Of a DNA stretch of 64,000 bases, positions 57,989-64,000 are shown piece after piece; positions within the stretch are counted from its first letter, which is position 1; every line of letters begins with the position of its first letter. The position numbers and the translations under genes are program-made. Where the stretch lies: positions 1,344,001 through 1,408,000 of the forward strand of contig CAWAHW010000002.1 of the NCBI GenBank assembly GCA_963781885.1. Reading direction: 5' to 3'. The notes under the pieces are model-generated. The model ran no database searches. It had not been told where the DNA came from and saw only the letters and a list, made by a program, of their open reading frames with translations. The DNA is from an uncultured Spirochaetota bacterium. GTDB lineage: Bacteria > Spirochaetota > Spirochaetia > SZUA-6 > Fen-1364.

Positions 57989-59377
57989 CTATTTCTTCCT
58001 TTCCTTCGACTGCACCTTCATCGTCAGGGCCTTCCCGTCTTCCGCGCGCAGGGCAAAGGATTTGCCGCGCGCATCAGGGGGAATATCCGTGAGCTTCGGG
58101 AAACGGTCCTTCTTCAGAACCCCTAGCAGGATCCTGCCGTCCTTCAGAGAGAATTTCGCGATGCTCCGGCCCGTCCTGTTGCCGACCAGCGTGAAGGCGC
58201 CCTTGCCCTCCGTGAGGAAAAGCTCGCGCCGGCCGCGCAGCGCCACAGGCGCATCGGTGAGGGGCTTGTCCTGGATGAGCACGCCGAACCGGACGGGCTT
58301 TCCCGCGGTGAGGCGCCAGATCAGATAGATCACAGCGGCAACGATGATGAGCAGGAGGACGATCGCGGCAATGAGGACGATCAGGTTGTTCTGTATCCAG
58401 CCGGCAACGGTGAAGGATACGGAAGGCTCGGCCGGAGAGAAGCTCTGGCCGGCGCCGAACGTGAAGAATATCGTTCCGCTCAGGCTCCCCGGCTGCGGTA
58501 CGGAAGGGAAGGCAAGCGGAATGGAGACGGCAGTCGACCCGATCTTCTTCACCGTGAAGGTGAAGGGGGCCTTGAGGATCTGGGGGGCGGGGGTCATGCC
58601 CGTCCGCGCCTCGATACCAACCACTGTCACCTTCGTATCGTCCTTCAACCCGCTCGATGTCAGGGTGAATGAAACGCTGCTGCTGCCGTCCGCCCTGATG
58701 GGGCTGACGCGGGCAGCGCCTTTCATCTCCACGGTGGCGAAGAGGCTGCCCGCCTGCTGGTCCATCGCGCCGACGTTCGTGATCTCGTTGTACGATCCCT
58801 GGAGCTCCTTTGCGAGATCTTTTGCCGCGGTGTCCGTTCCGATGCCGAGGATCATCACCTTCCATCCTTTTTGCTGGATGGTTTTCGTATTGGTGAGGAA
58901 CTCGTGGTTGAACTGCCCGTTCTTTGAGTAGTACTTGCTCGTGGCGGGCGCCTCCTGGATACCATCAGTCAGGAGGAGGACGTATTTCTCCCGCCCATCG
59001 GATTCCCGCGCCGCCACCTGGGCCTTCACCGCGTCGAGCGCGTTGCCGATGTCCGTGAAGGCGCCGTTCCCCTTGATGCCGGATATCAGCTTCTTCAGCG
59101 CCGTCTTGTCCGCATCGTCCTTGATCTGCTGCGAAACGATGACGTCAGCCTTTCCGTAGAACTCGACCACGATTAAATAGTCACCGGGGATGAGCAACTG
59201 GTCGACAATGGAGCTGTTGACCCACGATTCCACCGCGCCGATCTTGTTCTCCATCGACAGCGACTTGTCGAGGGCGATTACGACGTCGATGTTGCTTGTT
59301 CGGGTATCCGCCAGAAGAGGGGCCGCAAGGCCTGCGCAAAGCGCCGCGACGATCAAAAAGGCTTTCCGGACTCTCAT
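57989..59377 (-). CDS. membrane-anchored vWA-domain protein (Tp0750-like)
   Basis: Signal peptide, MIDAS DKSLS, FTDIG, LLTDG, late TM helix. Confidence 0.85.
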   Translation of the reverse strand: MRVRKAFLIVAALCAGLAAPLLADTRTSNIDVVIALDKSLSMENKIGAVESWVNSSIVDQLLIPGDYLIVVEFYGKADVIVSQQIKDDADKTALKKLISGIKGNGAFTDIGNALDAVKAQVAARESDGREKYVLLLTDGIQEAPATSKYYSKNGQFNHEFLTNTKTIQQKGWKVMILGIGTDTAAKDLAKELQGSYNEITNVGAMDQQAGSLFATVEMKGAARVSPIRADGSSSVSFTLTSSGLKDDTKVTVVGIEARTGMTPAPQILKAPFTFTVKKIGSTAVSIPLAFPSVPQPGSLSGTIFFTFGAGQSFSPAEPSVSFTVAGWIQNNLIVLIAAIVLLLIIVAAVIYLIWRLTAGKPVRFGVLIQDKPLTDAPVALRGRRELFLTEGKGAFTLVGNRTGRSIAKFSLKDGRILLGVLKKDRFPKLTDIPPDARGKSFALRAEDGKALTMKVQSKERKK

Positions 59378-59512
59378 GTGGCCACCTCTTTGAATAATTT
59401 ACTTGTAGGATGCACCAAATTTGGATAAAATGGAAGGGGAGAAAAAAGTGCTTGCCAGAGATAGCCTTTTGTGGTCTACTAGGTTCGAATAAACTGAGAA
59501 AAGGAGATAACT

Positions 59513-61546
59513 ATGGCTGCTATTGACCTTCCGAAAAGCCCGAATGTGTTCCATCCGGAAAAGCCGAGCGCCGTCGGTTCTCGAAACTCGCTGGCCCAGG
59601 AGTTCAGGGACCAGCAGGCCGAGGTCGACCTCCTCATGTCGGAAGAAGTCGACAAGGTCATGAACCATATCTCCTCCAAGCTCCCCAAGGAAGTGGCGGA
59701 CAAGCTCGACATCATGGGCGGCATCAAGGAGAAGCTGTACAACTACTTCAACCAGAACTACCAGAACATGTTCAACCGCTTCATCGTCACATCGGAAGAC
59801 GAGATGGTGAAGAAGGTCAGGAACTTCATCGACAAAGAGGAAATGAAGACCCTGGCCCGCTACACCCCCAAGGAGATCGCCGCGCTCCTGGACCAGGTCG
59901 GCGGCATCGACAAGTTCAACACGGGCGAAATCGAGAAATCGATCGTCAACATGTACGGCCATTTGCAGGGCCACATCCAGCGCGGGGTGAACGACCTTGA
60001 GAACGTCACCAACTCCCTCCTGCGCCAGAAGACGGACGTCGGCGCGTTCATCCGCGGTGAGAACGCCTATTCCATCGTGAAGTGCTCCTTCAAGGACAGC
60101 GCCTTCAAGCCGAAGACGGTCACCGACGTGAAGCTCTCCGTGAACATCCTCGACTCGGAGCTCATCAGCCCCATCTTCCACTACCAGGTGACGGTGGAGT
60201 TCCTGGTGAAGGACCTCATCTCCAAGAACATCCTCGACCTGATCGACAAGGAGATCGAGAAGCTGAAGGACCAGGTCGTTGATGAAGGGCGGGAAGAGCT
60301 CTCGGACGGCGAGATCCTCTTCGAGAAGATGAAGAGGGTGGAAAAGTTCACCTCGGATGAAAAGGACGACGCACGGTCCAAGAGGTACTCTTTCTTCGCC
60401 AAGGCTCTGATGGACAAGATCGAAGGCCTCCGCGCGGAGATCGATCCCGAGGAATATGATCCGGTGAACATCCGTGAGAACCTGAAGCGGATCATCGACA
60501 TCGAAAACATCAGGAACCGCGGCTTCAACACGGCCATCAACTCCATCACGTCCATCCTCGACACCTCGAAGATGGGCTACCAGCACGTGGAGAACCTCAA
60601 GAACGCCCGTGAGCTGATCCTCCGCGAGTATGAGGACACGGACGACGCGCACCTGCCCGACGAGCGCTACGCCATCCGGCTGAAATATTACGATCAGGCG
60701 CAGCTCCTGGAAGAGCGCAAGGCCTACGACGTGCAGGCAAAGAGCTTCGAGGTGGAAGTGCTGCACGTGTGGGACGTGCTGGACATGGTGTATGAGGATT
60801 CGAAGTTCCTGAAGGGCGTCGTGGATTTCGAAGACCTCGCGCGCAAGCTGAAGGGGAAGATCAAGAGGCGGATCAAGGCGCGCACCGGCGACCCGCTCTA
60901 TGAAGACATCGAAAAGAGCTGGACGGAAGTCACCTTCATCAAGCCGGGGGACACGGACGTCGAGCGCATGAACCGCACCTATATCTCGGAGAAGGACGAC
61001 CTGAAGCGCCGCATCATCCTGATGCGCGACAAGCTGCAGAAGCTGTATGGCTACCGCTACCCCATCCAGCGCCGCGTCATTGAAGACAGGGTCGCGTTCC
61101 TTGAAAAGCAGTTCCTCAGGTTCGAATACCTCATCAACCCGTACCACATCCAGCCGGGGCTCCTCCTGGACGTGAATATCACGTCCATCAAGAGGAAGAA
61201 GGCCACACTGGACGGAATGGCGAATGTTTTGAACGAATTCCTCTACGGCGTATCCAAGGGATTCCAGGACGCGGCATTCGCATCCTTCTCCCGCCGCCGC
61301 TCGACGGTTCGCGCGGACATCGCGCAGTCCTTTGCCGCCAGCGCGCCGGAAGCCCCGGCCGCCGAAGGCAAGAAGTCGGAGTACCTCGACATGCTCAACG
61401 TTCCGGCCGCTGATGCAAAAGTAGCAAAAGCTGCGGAGCAGGGCGTCGTCGACGTGGCACCGCGCCGCCGGCGCGGCCGCCCTGCCAAGCAGGCGCGGGG
61501 GAGGCCGCGGAAGGGCTCCGGAGACGTAGGGCTCCGAGAAATCTGA
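59513..61546 (+). CDS. cfpA: cytoplasmic filament protein CfpA
   Basis: N-terminus [25 protein letters not shown] recognised as treponemal CfpA; coiled-coil rich, 677 aa; strong SD AAGGAG. Confidence 0.93.
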
Positions 61547-61561
61547 TTAGGCGGGTAATCG

Positions 61562-61594
61562 AATGGTGACCCTTCGGGGTCACCATTTTCATTT
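61562..61594 (+). terminator. intrinsic terminator after cfpA
   Basis: AATGGTGACCC-TTCG-GGGTCACCATT perfect stem with UUCG loop, followed by TTCATTT. Confidence 0.85.
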
Positions 61595-61659
61595 CTATCG
61601 CGCGCGTGCGCATTTTCCTTTCCAGCGCGGCGTACGCGATGAGGATAGAGGGGAAACAG

Positions 61660-62739
61660 ATGCCGGAACAAGTCCATGCTTTCGACGAGCTTGCCACACG
61701 GGACGGTTTCAACCGATCCCTCAGGCACTTCAAGTTCATTTCAACAGTCATCGGGGCTTTTGAATCGAGGCGCAACATCGCCGACACCTTGAGCGAATGC
61801 CTTGCCGACAAGAGCATCGAGCCACGGCAGGTGCTGCCGACGCTCAACGCGATCCTCGTCGACAAGTATCACTATCTCTGCCGGTCGCGAAACCTCACGG
61901 AAAGCTTCGAAGATTTCGACTCCCTCACGCAGACGGTGGGCACCTGGCGCGCGGTGGACCTCGTGGTGGCATACTTCCACCCCGAGCTCGGCGTCGTGGT
62001 CGTCAACCCGAAGAACCGCGAGCATTGGGAGGTCGTCCGCGCGCTGAAGAAGAACGAGCTTGTCGCCGTCTTCGCCGGCGCATTCGGCGAGACGGAGGAT
62101 CACGACAAGAAGTACGCCGACGCCATCACGCTCCTGATCGCCCTCATGGAGGGCGGGAAGGTGAAGACGCCGGCCGTCCTCACAAAAGGCAAGTTCGTGT
62201 TCAAGAAGGCAGCGCCCGTGGCGCCGCCGGCTCCTGCAAAGGCCCCGCGCAAGGCGACGCGGGGAAGACCCGCCAAGGCGTCGCGCATCGACCTGAGCGC
62301 CGCCGTCGCCGCGGCTCCTGCCGCGAGCCTTCCCGCGTACTCGTCGGCGCCGACGACGGCCCTCGCGCCCGCGCCGTCGGCCGCCCCCGCCGCGCCTTCC
62401 GGCGCGCCGAAAAAGATGACGCCGATGTATTCCATCCCCGTGACGAATGAGCTCTTCCACAACGGCAATGTGGAGGCGTGGAAGAAGATCATTCAGAGCT
62501 ACACCACGAAGTATCCGGGGCTGGACGTGTACGTCTTCTACGAGGGGGAACGCATCCACGACATCAACACCCTTTTCAAGTGGGGGAAGGTGAAGCACGG
62601 CAGCGCCATCATGATCGCGGTCGCCGGCGACGACATCCGGGACGTGGCGAAGCTCCAGCGCTACCTGAAGCAGGGCGCCAGCCACATGTTCGAGGCATTC
62701 CTCAAGGCGCAGGTCGGCGCGATCCTGAACCTGTTCTGA
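61660..62739 (+). CDS. conserved hypothetical protein with two predicted HPr-like domains and an Ala/Pro/Lys linker
   Basis: ORF clear, SD GAGGGG; HPr similarity by manual alignment only. Confidence 0.75.
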   Translation: MPEQVHAFDELATRDGFNRSLRHFKFISTVIGAFESRRNIADTLSECLADKSIEPRQVLPTLNAILVDKYHYLCRSRNLTESFEDFDSLTQTVGTWRAVDLVVAYFHPELGVVVVNPKNREHWEVVRALKKNELVAVFAGAFGETEDHDKKYADAITLLIALMEGGKVKTPAVLTKGKFVFKKAAPVAPPAPAKAPRKATRGRPAKASRIDLSAAVAAAPAASLPAYSSAPTTALAPAPSAAPAAPSGAPKKMTPMYSIPVTNELFHNGNVEAWKKIIQSYTTKYPGLDVYVFYEGERIHDINTLFKWGKVKHGSAIMIAVAGDDIRDVAKLQRYLKQGASHMFEAFLKAQVGAILNLF

Positions 62740-62759
62740 TCTGAAAGGGAAGGACACAG

Positions 62760-64000
62760 ATGAAGAAGAATATCCACTTCTTTGACCAGGGCGAAGCGAA
62801 CGTCAAACCGCAGGTTCTCGAGCGCATCGGCATCCGTGGCCGTCTTGCCATGGAGCTGGCGGATCTCGACCTGCCCATCCTGCCCGGTTTCATCATCGAC
62901 GCCGAGGTGGCGGCGCACCTGAAAGACTACGATATCTGGGCGGCGCTCTCGCCCTGGTTGGACCGGCTTGCAAAACTGACGGGAAAATCCTTCGGGGACG
63001 TGGAAAATCCGATGTTGGTGAAGATCGTCATCAGCCCCAACCTCGTCATTGCCTCCTACCCGACGCTGCACAACTTCGGGCTCACGGACACCACCGTGCC
63101 GGGATTCAACCACTATGTCGGGGAGAACTTCGGCTGGCACGAGATGCAGTTCCTCACGAGCGGAAGCCTGGAGATCGAGCTCGCCATCGCGGAGCTGGAG
63201 AACAGGGAGAAGGACGCCAAGGCGATCAAGCAGACCATCAAGGAGCTGGGCGCGGAGCTTTCCTCGGAGCGCGACTCGAAGAAGCGCAAGGAGAGCGTGG
63301 CGCGCTGCATGAAGATGCTGCCGGAGGGGTATTTCGCGGACCCCATGGACCAGCTTGTCATCGCCCTGAAGCGCATCAGCCACCTCCTGTCGATCACCGA
63401 TCAGAACCAGGAAGACACGGCGCTGATCATCCAGCCCATGGTGTACGGCAACTACGGCAAAGACTCCCTGAACGGGCAGTTCTATACCCGCAACATCGTC
63501 ACCGGGGACAAGGAGATCCAGGGCGAGTATTTCCAGAACAAGTTCAACGCCATCGGCACGGCGGGATCCGACATCTCCAACATCGCCAAGACCTATCACG
63601 CGGAGCTGGAGAAGATCGCCCGCGCCGTGGAGGACCATTTCCGGGAAATACGGTCCATCCGCTTTACCGTTGAAAACAAGAGGCTCTGGCTGATCGATCA
63701 GCGCTCCGTCATGACAAAGAGCACGCAGGCGGACATCCGCCTCCTGCTGGATCTGCATGCGCGCAAGATCGTTGATGACACCTACGTCGTGAGTCAGATC
63801 AAGCCGGGGCAGCTCAACGAGATCCTGCACCCCATCATCGATTTCACGTCGGTGAAGGGCCTGCCCTGCTTGACGGGCGGCATCACGGGTGCGCCGGGAG
63901 CCGCAATCGGCAGGATATTCTTCTCCACGGAAGGGCTCCTGGAGGCCCACAAGCTCGCCCAACAGAAGGGCCATGACACGAAGCTCATCCTCTGTCTCGT
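62760..64000 (+). CDS. pyruvate,phosphate dikinase homologue (PEP-utilising family) with divergent ATP-grasp site; 3' truncated by window
   Basis: Open frame to window end: LPILPGFII, GKSFGDVENPMLV, QPMVYGN, YTRN..TG, FTVENKRLW, LHP, GAPGAAIGRIFF. Confidence 0.85.
   Translation, partial: MKKNIHFFDQGEANVKPQVLERIGIRGRLAMELADLDLPILPGFIIDAEVAAHLKDYDIWAALSPWLDRLAKLTGKSFGDVENPMLVKIVISPNLVIASYPTLHNFGLTDTTVPGFNHYVGENFGWHEMQFLTSGSLEIELAIAELENREKDAKAIKQTIKELGAELSSERDSKKRKESVARCMKMLPEGYFADPMDQLVIALKRISHLLSITDQNQEDTALIIQPMVYGNYGKDSLNGQFYTRNIVTGDKEIQGEYFQNKFNAIGTAGSDISNIAKTYHAELEKIARAVEDHFREIRSIRFTVENKRLWLIDQRSVMTKSTQADIRLLLDLHARKIVDDTYVVSQIKPGQLNEILHPIIDFTSVKGLPCLTGGITGAPGAAIGRIFFSTEGLLEAHKLAQQKGHDTKLILCL

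What the first reader, a model, noticed from the sequence alone, without database searches (positions are those of the whole stretch)
59513..64000. Candidate PEP-driven phosphorelay attached to the spirochaete cytoplasmic filament (cfpA - tandem HPr-like protein - ATP-site-degenerate PPDK)
Seen: three co-directional genes - cfpA, a protein ending in an HPr-like domain with a His at the His15-equivalent position, and a PPDK homologue lacking most ATP-site residues. Established: PPDK and PTS Enzyme I share the PEP-binding barrel and swivelling phospho-His domain, and Enzyme I passes the phosphoryl group to HPr rather than to a nucleotide. From memory, the same gene order occurs in Treponema (about TP0748-TP0747-TP0746), where the last gene is simply annotated ppdK. 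Inference: this PPDK works as an Enzyme-I-like donor (PEP -> His -> HPr-like neighbour), coupling carbon flux to filament assembly, chromosome handling or division. I know of no description of such a system.
Basis: partly seen in the sequence, partly recalled or inferred. Interest (0 to 1): 0.88.

Follow-up and report, generated by a model that had tools for sequence, protein, structure and literature searches.

The report
Filament gene linked to remodelled PPDK
In spirochaetes that make the CfpA cytoplasmic filament, the filament gene always travels with a protein built from two HPr-like folds and a pyruvate-phosphate-dikinase copy that keeps its PEP and histidine sites but has a rebuilt nucleotide site, which suggests an untested PEP-driven signalling module.

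Summary
Window 59513-64000 carries cfpA, a 359-aa TP_0747-family gene and the first 413 codons of an 881-aa PPDK paralogue.

- **Middle protein.** Predicted structures show two HPr-like folds. His267 sits at the start of the first helix of the second fold and is kept in 69 of 72 relatives.
- **Paralogue.** It keeps the catalytic His440 and every PEP-site motif checked. The conserved nucleotide-site positions carry new, themselves conserved residues: K22R, R92V, M103Y, R135F, E323R, Q335D.
- **Own genome.** It also has a canonical PPDK, Enzyme I and HPr.
- **Distribution.** In 151 Spirochaetota genomes, cfpA (60), the middle gene (61) and the paralogue (59, plus one divergent copy) occur in the same genomes. 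In 80 named loci the order is fixed.
- **Small genome.** A 1.1-Mb genome whose coordinates match those printed for T. pallidum TP0746/TP0748 has only this paralogue and no pyruvate kinase.

Phosphotransfer from the paralogue to His267 is plausible but unproven. No sequence-level homology to HPr was found.

The parts
59513..61546 (+). cfpA, cytoplasmic filament protein A (677 aa)
   Evidence: NCBIfam NF040882 at 1162.8 bits, cut-off 500, residues 5-608. ORF.
61460..61513 (+). Basic tail of CfpA with two RGRP (AT-hook-like) motifs, outside the CfpA family model
   Evidence: Translation [19 protein letters not shown]. GRP or RGR motifs occur in the last 75 residues of 69 of 77 CfpA orthologues. 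DNA binding is inferred, not tested.
61561..61588 (+). 12-bp hairpin with a UUCG loop followed by a U-rich run, between cfpA and the middle gene; likely partial terminator or transcript stabiliser
   Evidence: Terminator-like scan. The fold of 61545-61662 is -49.1 kcal/mol, z = -4.26, and 0 of 200 shuffles fold as well.
61660..62739 (+). TP_0747-family gene (359 aa plus stop): helical bundle, HPr-like fold 1, Ala/Pro-rich basic linker, HPr-like fold 2
   Evidence: The 120 listed homologues all carry precomputed PF27497, named TP_0747_N. AlphaFold2 model pLDDT 87.3. 196 clusters at 50% identity.
61876..62148 (+). HPr-like fold 1 (residues 73-163); no His before its first helix
   Evidence: Model of residues 1-190 has pLDDT 85.5 and pTM 0.80. 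The top eight Foldseek PDB matches are HPr or Crh.
62407..62736 (+). HPr-like fold 2 (residues 250-359), the most conserved part of the protein
   Evidence: Mean identity to the window copy is 59.7%, against 31.9% for the N part and 18.1% for the linker, over 72 diverse members. Topology. HPr/Crh are the top matches. That those alignments lie on this domain is inferred, because their lengths and identities differ from those.
62458..62460 (+). His267 codon, in the motif NELFHNGNVEAW; candidate phospho-acceptor
   Evidence: Translation. His in 69 of 72, Asn270 in 72 of 72. It sits one residue before helix 268-284.
62760..64000 (+). First 413 codons of the 881-aa PPDK paralogue (remodelled ATP-grasp domain and the start of the central domain). 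The gene ends at G000:C2:1409405, stop codon included.
   Evidence: TIGR01828 660.7 bits, below the 843.45 cut-off. PEP-utilizers_C 244.8 bits and mobile domain 27.7 bits.
62835..63704 (+). Span holding the changed nucleotide-site positions R26, V90, Y100, F131, S299, R301, D313 and the retained R315
   Evidence: Mapping to 1DIK. In 66 paralogues against 5 canonical PPDKs: K22R 66/66, R92V/I 66/66, M103Y 66/66, R135F/Y 66/66, E323R 63/66, Q335D/E 64/66, R337 kept 60/66.

Best explanation
This is a conserved three-gene module of CfpA-bearing spirochaetes. It consists of the filament protein CfpA, a TP_0747-family protein made of two HPr-like folds joined by a flexible basic linker, and a PPDK paralogue.

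The paralogue keeps the PEP/pyruvate half-reaction. Its PEP barrel and swivelling His440 are intact, so PEP should phosphorylate His440. Its ATP-grasp half-site has been rebuilt with a new, conserved residue set: two metal-ligand positions swapped to Arg and Asp, and three basic or loop positions swapped to Val, Tyr and Phe. It therefore most likely no longer hands the phosphoryl group to AMP/PPi.

The most likely acceptor is His267 on the second HPr-like fold of the neighbouring gene product, docked on the rebuilt domain. The module would then work like Enzyme I and HPr and report the PEP/pyruvate state to the filament.

Shown: the gene content, the predicted folds, the residue patterns, the co-occurrence and the synteny. 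Inferred: autophosphorylation, loss of nucleotide use, transfer to His267, and any effect on CfpA.

My odds: the three genes are functionally linked, 0.9; the paralogue is not an ordinary AMP/PPi dikinase, 0.65; His267 is the acceptor, 0.35-0.4.
For: - **Intact donor half.** His440 and RTEHMF, GHRGCR, GTNDLTQ and CGEHG are kept in at least 95% of 66 paralogues, and the PEP domain is 46% identical to canonical PPDK.
- **Rebuilt, not decayed, acceptor half.** The N domain is only 23% identical to canonical PPDKs (canonical against canonical, 61%). Yet 67 N-domain columns are at least 95% conserved within the paralogues, including the replacement residues.
- **A second enzyme alongside.** In the per-genome table, 55 of the 60 genomes with the paralogue also have a canonical PPDK match over the cut-off. 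Two more have canonical fragments at contig ends.
- **Acceptor candidate.** There are two predicted HPr folds. His267 lies at the start of a helix and is kept in 69 of 72 members. The domain is near-invariant among close relatives.
- **Linkage in named loci.** In 80 of 80 loci the paralogue follows the middle gene on the same strand. In 77 of 80, cfpA precedes it; the other three loci have no room upstream.
- **Linkage in the phylum sample.** Of 151 genomes, cfpA is in 60, the middle gene in 61 and the paralogue's N domain in 59, all 59 within the 61. All three genes are kept even where they lie on different contigs, as in G076, G086, G103 and G146.
- **Expression.** The three T. denticola genes are repressed together (PMC3914990 Table 5).
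- **Not a substitute for the PTS.** HPr is in 150 of 151 genomes and Enzyme I over its cut-off in 145 of 151.
- **Precedent.** A PPDK descendant turned regulatory kinase is known: VadK (PMC13400623, abstract).
Against: - The HPr Pfam model does not detect the middle gene. Profile-profile comparison with 29 spirochaete HPrs gives probability 0.58% and E 0.1.
- The Foldseek E-values are weak (0.017-0.04), and no residue-level superposition was available, so 'His15-equivalent' rests on secondary-structure register.
- HPr's Arg17 has no counterpart (Gly269, then Asn270).
- Three of 72 members have Ser, Gln or Asn at position 267.
- PPDK lacks the helical subdomain that docks HPr in Enzyme I (established knowledge of the Enzyme I N-terminal domain).
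- R337, Q240 and a basic residue at K22 are retained, so a phosphate or PPi site may survive.
- G102, a complete 1.1-Mb genome, has no canonical PPDK and no pyruvate kinase. There the paralogue may carry glycolytic flux. A bypass through GTP-PEPCK and oxaloacetate decarboxylase is encoded.
- No fused form of the HPr-like domain with a longer protein was found (weak evidence).
- The catalytic roles of the 1DIK residues are recalled, not checked in a paper.
Confidence: 0.4

Rival explanations
1. The paralogue is still a metabolic PEP/pyruvate enzyme. It may be a dikinase with altered nucleotide handling, or an enzyme that passes the phosphoryl group to Pi or PPi. The TP_0747 protein merely tethers it to the CfpA filament, and the HPr folds serve as protein-binding modules.
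For: - G102 has this paralogue as its only PPDK homologue and lacks pyruvate kinase.
- Print treats TP0746 as the PEP + AMP + PPi to pyruvate + ATP enzyme (PMC10013896, passages).
- The ATP-grasp domain is retained at full length and conserved, and R337, Q240 and a basic residue at K22 are kept.
Against: - Both metal-ligand positions (E323, Q335) and three further conserved positions (R92, M103, R135) are replaced in at least 63 of 66 members.
- 55 of 60 genomes that carry it also have a canonical PPDK over the cut-off.
- Its strict co-occurrence with cfpA has no metabolic rationale.
- G102 encodes PEPCK and oxaloacetate decarboxylase as another route from PEP to pyruvate.
Confidence: 0.3
2. 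The module is a sensor without onward transfer. PEP phosphorylates His440, and the resulting swing of the central domain changes how the paralogue binds the TP_0747 protein or CfpA. His267 is structural or ligand-binding, and the HPr folds act like the His-less HPr relative Crh.
For: - Fold 1 has no His at the equivalent place.
- 3 of 72 members lack His267, while Asn270 is invariant.
- There is no Arg17 counterpart.
- The hydrophobic replacements V90, Y100 and F131 suit a protein interface (inference).
Against: - His267 is kept in 69 of 72 members, including the copies in the divergent G078 and in G076, where the three genes lie on separate contigs.
- Arg at positions 26, 301 and 315 would suit a phosphoryl group in transit (inference).
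Confidence: 0.2
3. The neighbourhood is historical accident, and the three genes have unrelated functions.
For: No physical or biochemical link has been shown. cfpA lies apart from the other two genes in some lineages.
Against: - The same 59-61 of 151 genomes hold all three genes and 90 hold none.
- 80 of 80 and 77 of 77 usable loci are syntenic at 43-96% protein identity.
- All three genes are retained where they are unlinked.
- They are co-regulated in T. denticola.
Confidence: 0.03

Closest known systems
PTS Enzyme I and HPr (the PEP:protein phosphoryl transfer chain)
   Same: - A PEP-binding barrel and a swivelling phospho-His domain of the same superfamily. TIGR01417 matches the paralogue's C-terminal part at 89.9 bits, and PDB Enzyme I chains match at E 1e-16 to 1e-21.
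- A small strand-helix-strand-strand-helix-strand-helix domain with a His at the start of its first helix as the proposed acceptor.
   Different: - The donor has an ATP-grasp domain where Enzyme I has the helical HPr-docking subdomain.
- The acceptor shows no sequence similarity to HPr, lacks Arg17, and is fused behind a second HPr-like fold.
- The genomes keep a normal Enzyme I and HPr as well.
- No transfer has been shown.
Canonical pyruvate, phosphate dikinase (for example C. symbiosum, PDB 1DIK/1KBL)
   Same: Same three-domain layout and length. It aligns end to end (501.6 bits). The catalytic His and the PEP-site motifs are identical.
   Different: - It falls below the equivalog cut-off (660.7 against 843.45).
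- N-domain identity is 23%, against 61% among canonical enzymes.
- The conserved nucleotide/Mg positions are replaced.
- It is always found with cfpA.
VadK (M. tuberculosis Rv1127c), a PPDK-derived regulatory histidine kinase
   Same: It is a PPDK descendant that left central metabolism for a regulatory role and autophosphorylates on His (PMC13400623, abstract only).
   Different: From recall, VadK keeps the ATP side and lacks the PEP barrel. Here the PEP side is kept and the ATP side is rebuilt. The two are not orthologous.
Rifampin phosphotransferase and related ATP-grasp / swivel-His enzymes
   Same: They use the modular swivelling-His mechanism with one substrate domain exchanged (PMC4844700, search listing abstract only).
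   Different: Those enzymes keep ATP as donor and replace the PEP domain. Here the PEP domain is kept.
Crh and the 3H domain (other HPr-fold proteins)
   Same: Crh (1zvv_J, 1k1c) and the 3H-domain regulators (1j5y, 7cv0) appear among the Foldseek matches. Like fold 1 here, Crh lacks the phospho-His (recalled).
   Different: There is no Pfam match to PTS-HPr or 3H. Here two such folds sit in one protein next to a PEP-utilising enzyme.

Membership tests
CfpA (NCBIfam NF040882, equivalog) | Full-length match above the curated cut-off of 500 bits | tested here: met
   1162.8 bits, residues 5-608 on model positions 1-604 of 605.
Pyruvate, phosphate dikinase (TIGR01828, equivalog) | Score at or above the curated cut-off of 843.45 bits | tested here: not met
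   660.7 bits for the whole gene. The genome's other copy scores 1214.9. In the phylum sample, the listed matches lying beside the middle gene score 654-740 bits, and the listed full-length canonical matches about 1215-1465.
Pyruvate, phosphate dikinase | PEP-binding barrel and mobile phospho-His domain with the catalytic His | tested here: met
   PF02896 244.8 bits and PF00391 27.7 bits (cut-off 23.1). His440 and the PEP motifs are conserved in at least 95% of 66 members.
Pyruvate, phosphate dikinase | ATP-grasp nucleotide domain (PF01326) with the conserved Lys, Arg and metal-ligand residues | tested here: not met
   PF01326 scores 21.9-25.3, below the cut-off of 27. K22R, R92V, M103Y, R135F, D321S, E323R and Q335D are seen, while R337, Q240 and E271 are kept in the window copy. 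The residue roles are recalled.
PTS Enzyme I (TIGR01417) | Score at or above 341.7 bits, and an N-terminal domain with the helical HPr-binding subdomain | tested here: not met
   89.9 bits on model positions 348-543 only. The N-terminal part aligns to the PPDK ATP-grasp domain instead.
HPr (Pfam PF00381) | Sequence match to the family model | tested here: not met
   The only PF00381 match in the genome at E <= 1 is the canonical HPr on contig 1. hhalign against 29 HPrs gives probability 0.58%.
HPr (fold) | Open-faced strand-helix-strand-strand-helix-strand-helix sandwich | tested here: met
   Predicted only. HPr or Crh are the top PDB matches for both domains, at TM 0.6-0.72 by target. E-values are 0.017 and above.
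HPr | Phospho-acceptor His at the N-cap of helix 1, followed by Arg17 | tested here: inconclusive
   His267 lies one residue before helix 268-284 and is kept in 69 of 72 members. The position two residues on is Gly269, not Arg. No structural superposition was available, because the VIA libraries are absent.
TP_0747_N (Pfam PF27497) | Match to the family model | tested here: inconclusive
   The local Pfam copy lacks this model. All 120 listed homologues, down to 57% identity, carry it in precomputed annotation.

The most novel reading that the evidence does not exclude
Spirochaetes that build CfpA filaments possess a second PEP:protein phosphotransfer chain, independent of the PTS. In it a former ATP-grasp domain has become the docking site for an HPr-fold acceptor. 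The chain sets the phosphorylation state of a filament-bound adaptor and so couples PEP/pyruvate status to the cytoplasmic filament and, through the AT-hook-like tails, to the nucleoid. A corollary: the gene annotated ppdK in T. pallidum (TP0746) is not the glycolytic ATP-forming enzyme. PEP would then reach pyruvate through PEPCK and oxaloacetate decarboxylase.
Probability: 0.25. Interest if true: 0.9.

Novelty: new variant of a known kind. Interest (0 to 1): 0.74.

Why it matters
The function of the CfpA filament has stayed open since its description in the 1990s (recalled). This analysis gives it two obligate genetic partners with a testable chemistry.

It also shows that the gene routinely called ppdK next to cfpA belongs to a distinct clade with a rebuilt nucleotide site. 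In a complete 1.1-Mb genome it is the only PPDK homologue, and no pyruvate kinase is present. That genome's coordinates and gene lengths match those printed for T. pallidum TP0746 and TP0748. If the enzyme is not a dikinase, current schemes of ATP yield in the syphilis spirochaete need revising.

More generally, it would be a case of an ATP-grasp site turned to a new use inside the swivelling-His enzyme family. It would mirror VadK, which (from recall) keeps the ATP side instead.

Tried and rejected
- **Complex prediction.** Full paralogue (alignment A3) with residues 250-359 of the middle protein (alignment A2). The result was no verdict (score 0.00, controls not run). It counts neither for nor against binding.
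- **Profile-profile comparison.** The C-terminal domain against 29 spirochaete HPrs showed no significant similarity.
- **Fusion search.** A search for longer proteins (630-2000 aa) containing the C-terminal domain found none. The tool itself calls this weak evidence.
- **Stand-alone C-terminal domains.** 239 short entries turned up, many of 104-107 aa. I suspected split genes, because one search listed two matches in eight genomes. The two I fetched (G039, G134) are single ORFs of 314 and 298 aa, so the split idea is rejected for those. The short entries may be truncated calls.
- **3H-domain reading.** Rejected: there is no Pfam hit, and only His267 of the window's three His is conserved. His300 is kept in 14 of 72 and His313 in 39 of 72.
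- **'The paralogue replaces a missing Enzyme I.'** Rejected: Enzyme I is over its cut-off in 145 of 151 genomes.
- **RNA evidence.** Four wetland or peat metatranscriptomes hold short contigs, mostly 90-95% alike (so from relatives), over cfpA. One 206-nt contig (X4, 62681-62886) spans the stop of the middle gene and the start of the paralogue. Contigs cannot rank expression or prove one transcript. The sparse cover downstream of cfpA is no finding.
- **Papers on the ATP-site residues.** None was found in the library.
- **Prior description.** Searches found no paper that describes the module or the divergence of the paralogue. Most subscription journals are outside this library, and for I read only the listing.
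- **Atlas search.** It gave the family name and a 0.84-score Myxococcota cluster, which I did not follow up.

Full report
**What is in the window.**
Three co-directional ORFs fill 59513-64000 on the + strand.
- The first (677 aa) is CfpA. It matches NCBIfam NF040882 at 1162.8 bits against a cut-off of 500.
- The second has no hit in the local Pfam or NCBIfam copies.
- The third runs off the window. It matches TIGR01828 (PPDK) at only 149.3 bits over its first 400 residues.

The window is G000:C2:1344001-1408000. I fetched the DNA beyond its end, and the whole third gene is 881 aa.

A 12-bp UUCG hairpin followed by a U-rich run sits between cfpA and the second gene. The second gene starts at ATG 61660 behind a GAGGGG, where its homologues start. 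Only 20 nt separate it from the third gene. A bidirectional terminator-like hairpin follows the third gene outside the window (L002 6428-6445). Upstream, on the other strand, lies a VWA-domain protein; downstream lie unrelated genes.

**The PPDK paralogue.**
Pfam finds the PEP-binding domain (244.8 bits) and the mobile His domain (27.7 bits). PPDK_N scores below its cut-off. The genome holds a second, canonical PPDK at 1214.9 bits, while this one scores 660.7, below the 843.45 cut-off.

The protein aligns end to end with C. symbiosum PPDK (1DIK, 501.6 bits). From that alignment:
- Positions K22, R92, G101, M103, R135, E279, D280, D321, E323 and Q335 read R, V, A, Y, F, A, I, S, R, D.
- Q240, E271 and R337 are kept.

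I recall from the C. symbiosum mutagenesis literature that these residues bind the nucleotide, its phosphates and Mg. I could not find that literature in the library, so the roles are recalled.

An independent argument comes from conservation. I compared 66 paralogues taken from related loci with 5 canonical spirochaete PPDKs.
- The canonical residues are invariant among the five.
- The replacements are themselves conserved: R 66/66, V/I 66/66, Y 66/66, F/Y 66/66, R 63/66, D/E 64/66.
- Identity between the two groups is 23% in the N domain, 30% in the central domain and 46% in the PEP domain. Canonical enzymes are 61, 51 and 53% alike in those domains.
- His440 (GGYSAHAS) and the motifs RTEHMF, GHRGCR, GTNDLTQ and CGEHG are kept in at least 95% of members.

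So the PEP half is intact, and the nucleotide half has been rebuilt under selection rather than left to decay.

**The middle protein.**
It belongs to a family of 2748 detected proteins that collapse to 196 clusters at 50% identity. Those with names are spirochaetes. Their precomputed Pfam label PF27497 is named TP_0747_N.

The last 105 or so residues are nearly invariant among relatives down to about 60% identity. Over 72 diverse members, identity to the window copy averages 59.7% in the C domain, 31.9% in the N part and 18.1% in the linker.

AlphaFold2 on a 72-row alignment gave pLDDT 87.3. Both 73-163 and 257-347 have the order strand-helix-strand-strand-helix-strand-helix.
- Foldseek on the whole model returns HPr and Crh as nearly all the top matches: probability up to 0.99, TM 0.6-0.71 by target, best E 0.036.
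- A separate model of residues 1-190 (pLDDT 85.5, pTM 0.80) also returns HPr as its top eight: 7x7h_B probability 1.00, TM 0.72, E 0.017.
- The alignments to the same PDB chains differ in length and identity between the two searches. I therefore infer that one search reports the C-terminal domain.

His267 lies one residue before helix 268-284, as His15 does in HPr. It is present in 69 of 72 members, and Asn270 in all 72. Fold 1 has no His at that place.

At sequence level there is no relation to HPr. The Pfam HPr model finds only the canonical HPr gene. hhalign against 29 spirochaete HPrs gives probability 0.58%.

**Linkage.**
A scan of species genomes found at least 570 that encode a relative of the middle protein. 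The best 80 loci are all named as Spirochaetota, Spirochaetia or lower spirochaete taxa.
- In 80 of 80, the paralogue follows on the same strand.
- In 77 of 80, cfpA precedes. The other three loci begin within or just before the middle gene.

In an even sample of 151 genomes of the phylum:
- cfpA is in 60 and the middle gene in 61.
- The paralogue's N domain is in 59, at 150 bits or more and 33% identity or more. Canonical PPDKs score 110 bits or less.
- All 59 lie within the 61.
- The two others are G078, whose more divergent copy lies next to the middle gene, and G105, where the contig may end.
- The one genome with the middle gene but no cfpA match (G048) may also be cut at a contig end.
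- Ninety genomes have none of the three.

In some lineages the genes are dispersed. In G076, G086, G103 and G146 all three lie on different contigs. In G011 and its relatives cfpA lies apart from the other two. All three genes, and both His residues, are still kept.

HPr is in 150 of 151 genomes and Enzyme I is over its cut-off in 145 of 151. The module is therefore additional to the PTS proteins.

**Treponema.**
- T. denticola carries TDE0842 cfpA, TDE0843 conserved hypothetical and TDE0844 'pyruvate phosphate dikinase, putative'. All three are repressed under the same conditions (PMC3914990, Table 5, passages).
- T. pallidum TP0746 (901 aa, reverse strand, near nt 810-811 k) and TP0748 (678 aa, near nt 814.9 k) are printed in PMC3373638 and PMC10013896 (passages). 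The latter says the enzyme 'most likely' forms pyruvate and ATP from PEP, AMP and diphosphate.
- Handle G102 is a complete 1.1-Mb single-contig genome. It has a 901-aa paralogue at 810746-813367, the middle gene at 813389-814393 and cfpA at 814710-816533. These figures coincide with the printed ones.
- G102 has no canonical PPDK and no pyruvate kinase. It does have GTP-PEPCK and the oxaloacetate decarboxylase beta subunit.
- Its paralogue carries the same replacements, and its middle protein keeps NELFHNGNVEAW.

**Reading.**
The safest statement is that CfpA, the TP_0747-family protein and the paralogue form one functional module. The paralogue can very probably still be phosphorylated by PEP on His440. 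What it does with the phosphoryl group is open.

I favour transfer to a non-nucleotide acceptor, with His267 as the best candidate. Three things point that way: the acceptor site was rebuilt rather than lost, an HPr-fold domain with a conserved His is encoded 20 nt upstream, and nearly every genome keeps a normal PPDK alongside.

Against this stand the lack of any sequence link to HPr, the missing Arg17 counterpart, the three His-less members, the absence of an Enzyme-I-type docking subdomain, and the G102 case, where the paralogue may be needed for glycolysis. The complex prediction gave no verdict.

**Comparison and novelty.**
- The module works most like Enzyme I and HPr, but it is not a member of either family by the tests above.
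- It is a PPDK-superfamily protein that fails the PPDK equivalog test.
- A PPDK descendant turned regulatory kinase is known in M. tuberculosis (VadK; PMC13400623, abstract). From recall, VadK keeps the ATP side instead.
- My searches found no description of the module or of the divergence of the cfpA-linked 'ppdK'. The library omits most subscription journals.
- I rate it a new variant of a known kind, with interest 0.74.

Noticed in passing
window 61460-61513: The CfpA tail outside the family model carries two RGRP motifs (AT-hook-like). GRP or RGR motifs occur in the tails of 69 of 77 orthologues and in 17 of 77 middle-protein linkers. This hints that the filament touches DNA.
   Followed up: partly
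L003:1237-4221 (-), G000:C2:714905-717613: The genome's canonical PPDK (994 aa) ends in a Lys/Ala/Pro-rich repeat tail of roughly 100 residues, resembling histone H1 tails.
   Followed up: no
G000:C2:891319-892982 (L008, L009): Enzyme I matches in two pieces that overlap by 16 nt: 891319-891852 and 891837-892982. This is a frameshift or an assembly error. In G102 the best Enzyme I match reaches only E 2.6e-80.
   Followed up: no
G018, G032, G044, G056, G104, G119, G126: In these genomes the paralogue lies in an open frame of about 965-972 aa. Its N domain matches in two pieces separated by an unmatched stretch of about 45-110 residues, which looks like an insertion.
   Followed up: no
window 61545-61662: The cfpA / middle-gene spacer folds far better than shuffles (z = -4.26). 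It forms a UUCG-capped hairpin and a second long stem just before the ribosome-binding site.
   Followed up: partly
proteins P0274, P0335, P0350, P0385, P0389 and others: Many database entries of 104-107 aa consist of the C-terminal HPr-like domain alone, some on long contigs, and one is labelled Deltaproteobacteria. Whether they are real free-standing genes or truncated calls is unknown.
   Followed up: partly
window 57989-59377 (-): A 462-aa protein with a VWA domain and what looks by eye like an internal hydrophobic stretch (not tested with a tool) is transcribed divergently from cfpA. I did not check whether this neighbour is conserved.
   Followed up: no
window 59399-61147 (-) and other long antisense ORFs: Long ORFs lie opposite cfpA and the other genes. 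I read them as by-products of the 55-67% G+C content. They were not tested.
   Followed up: no
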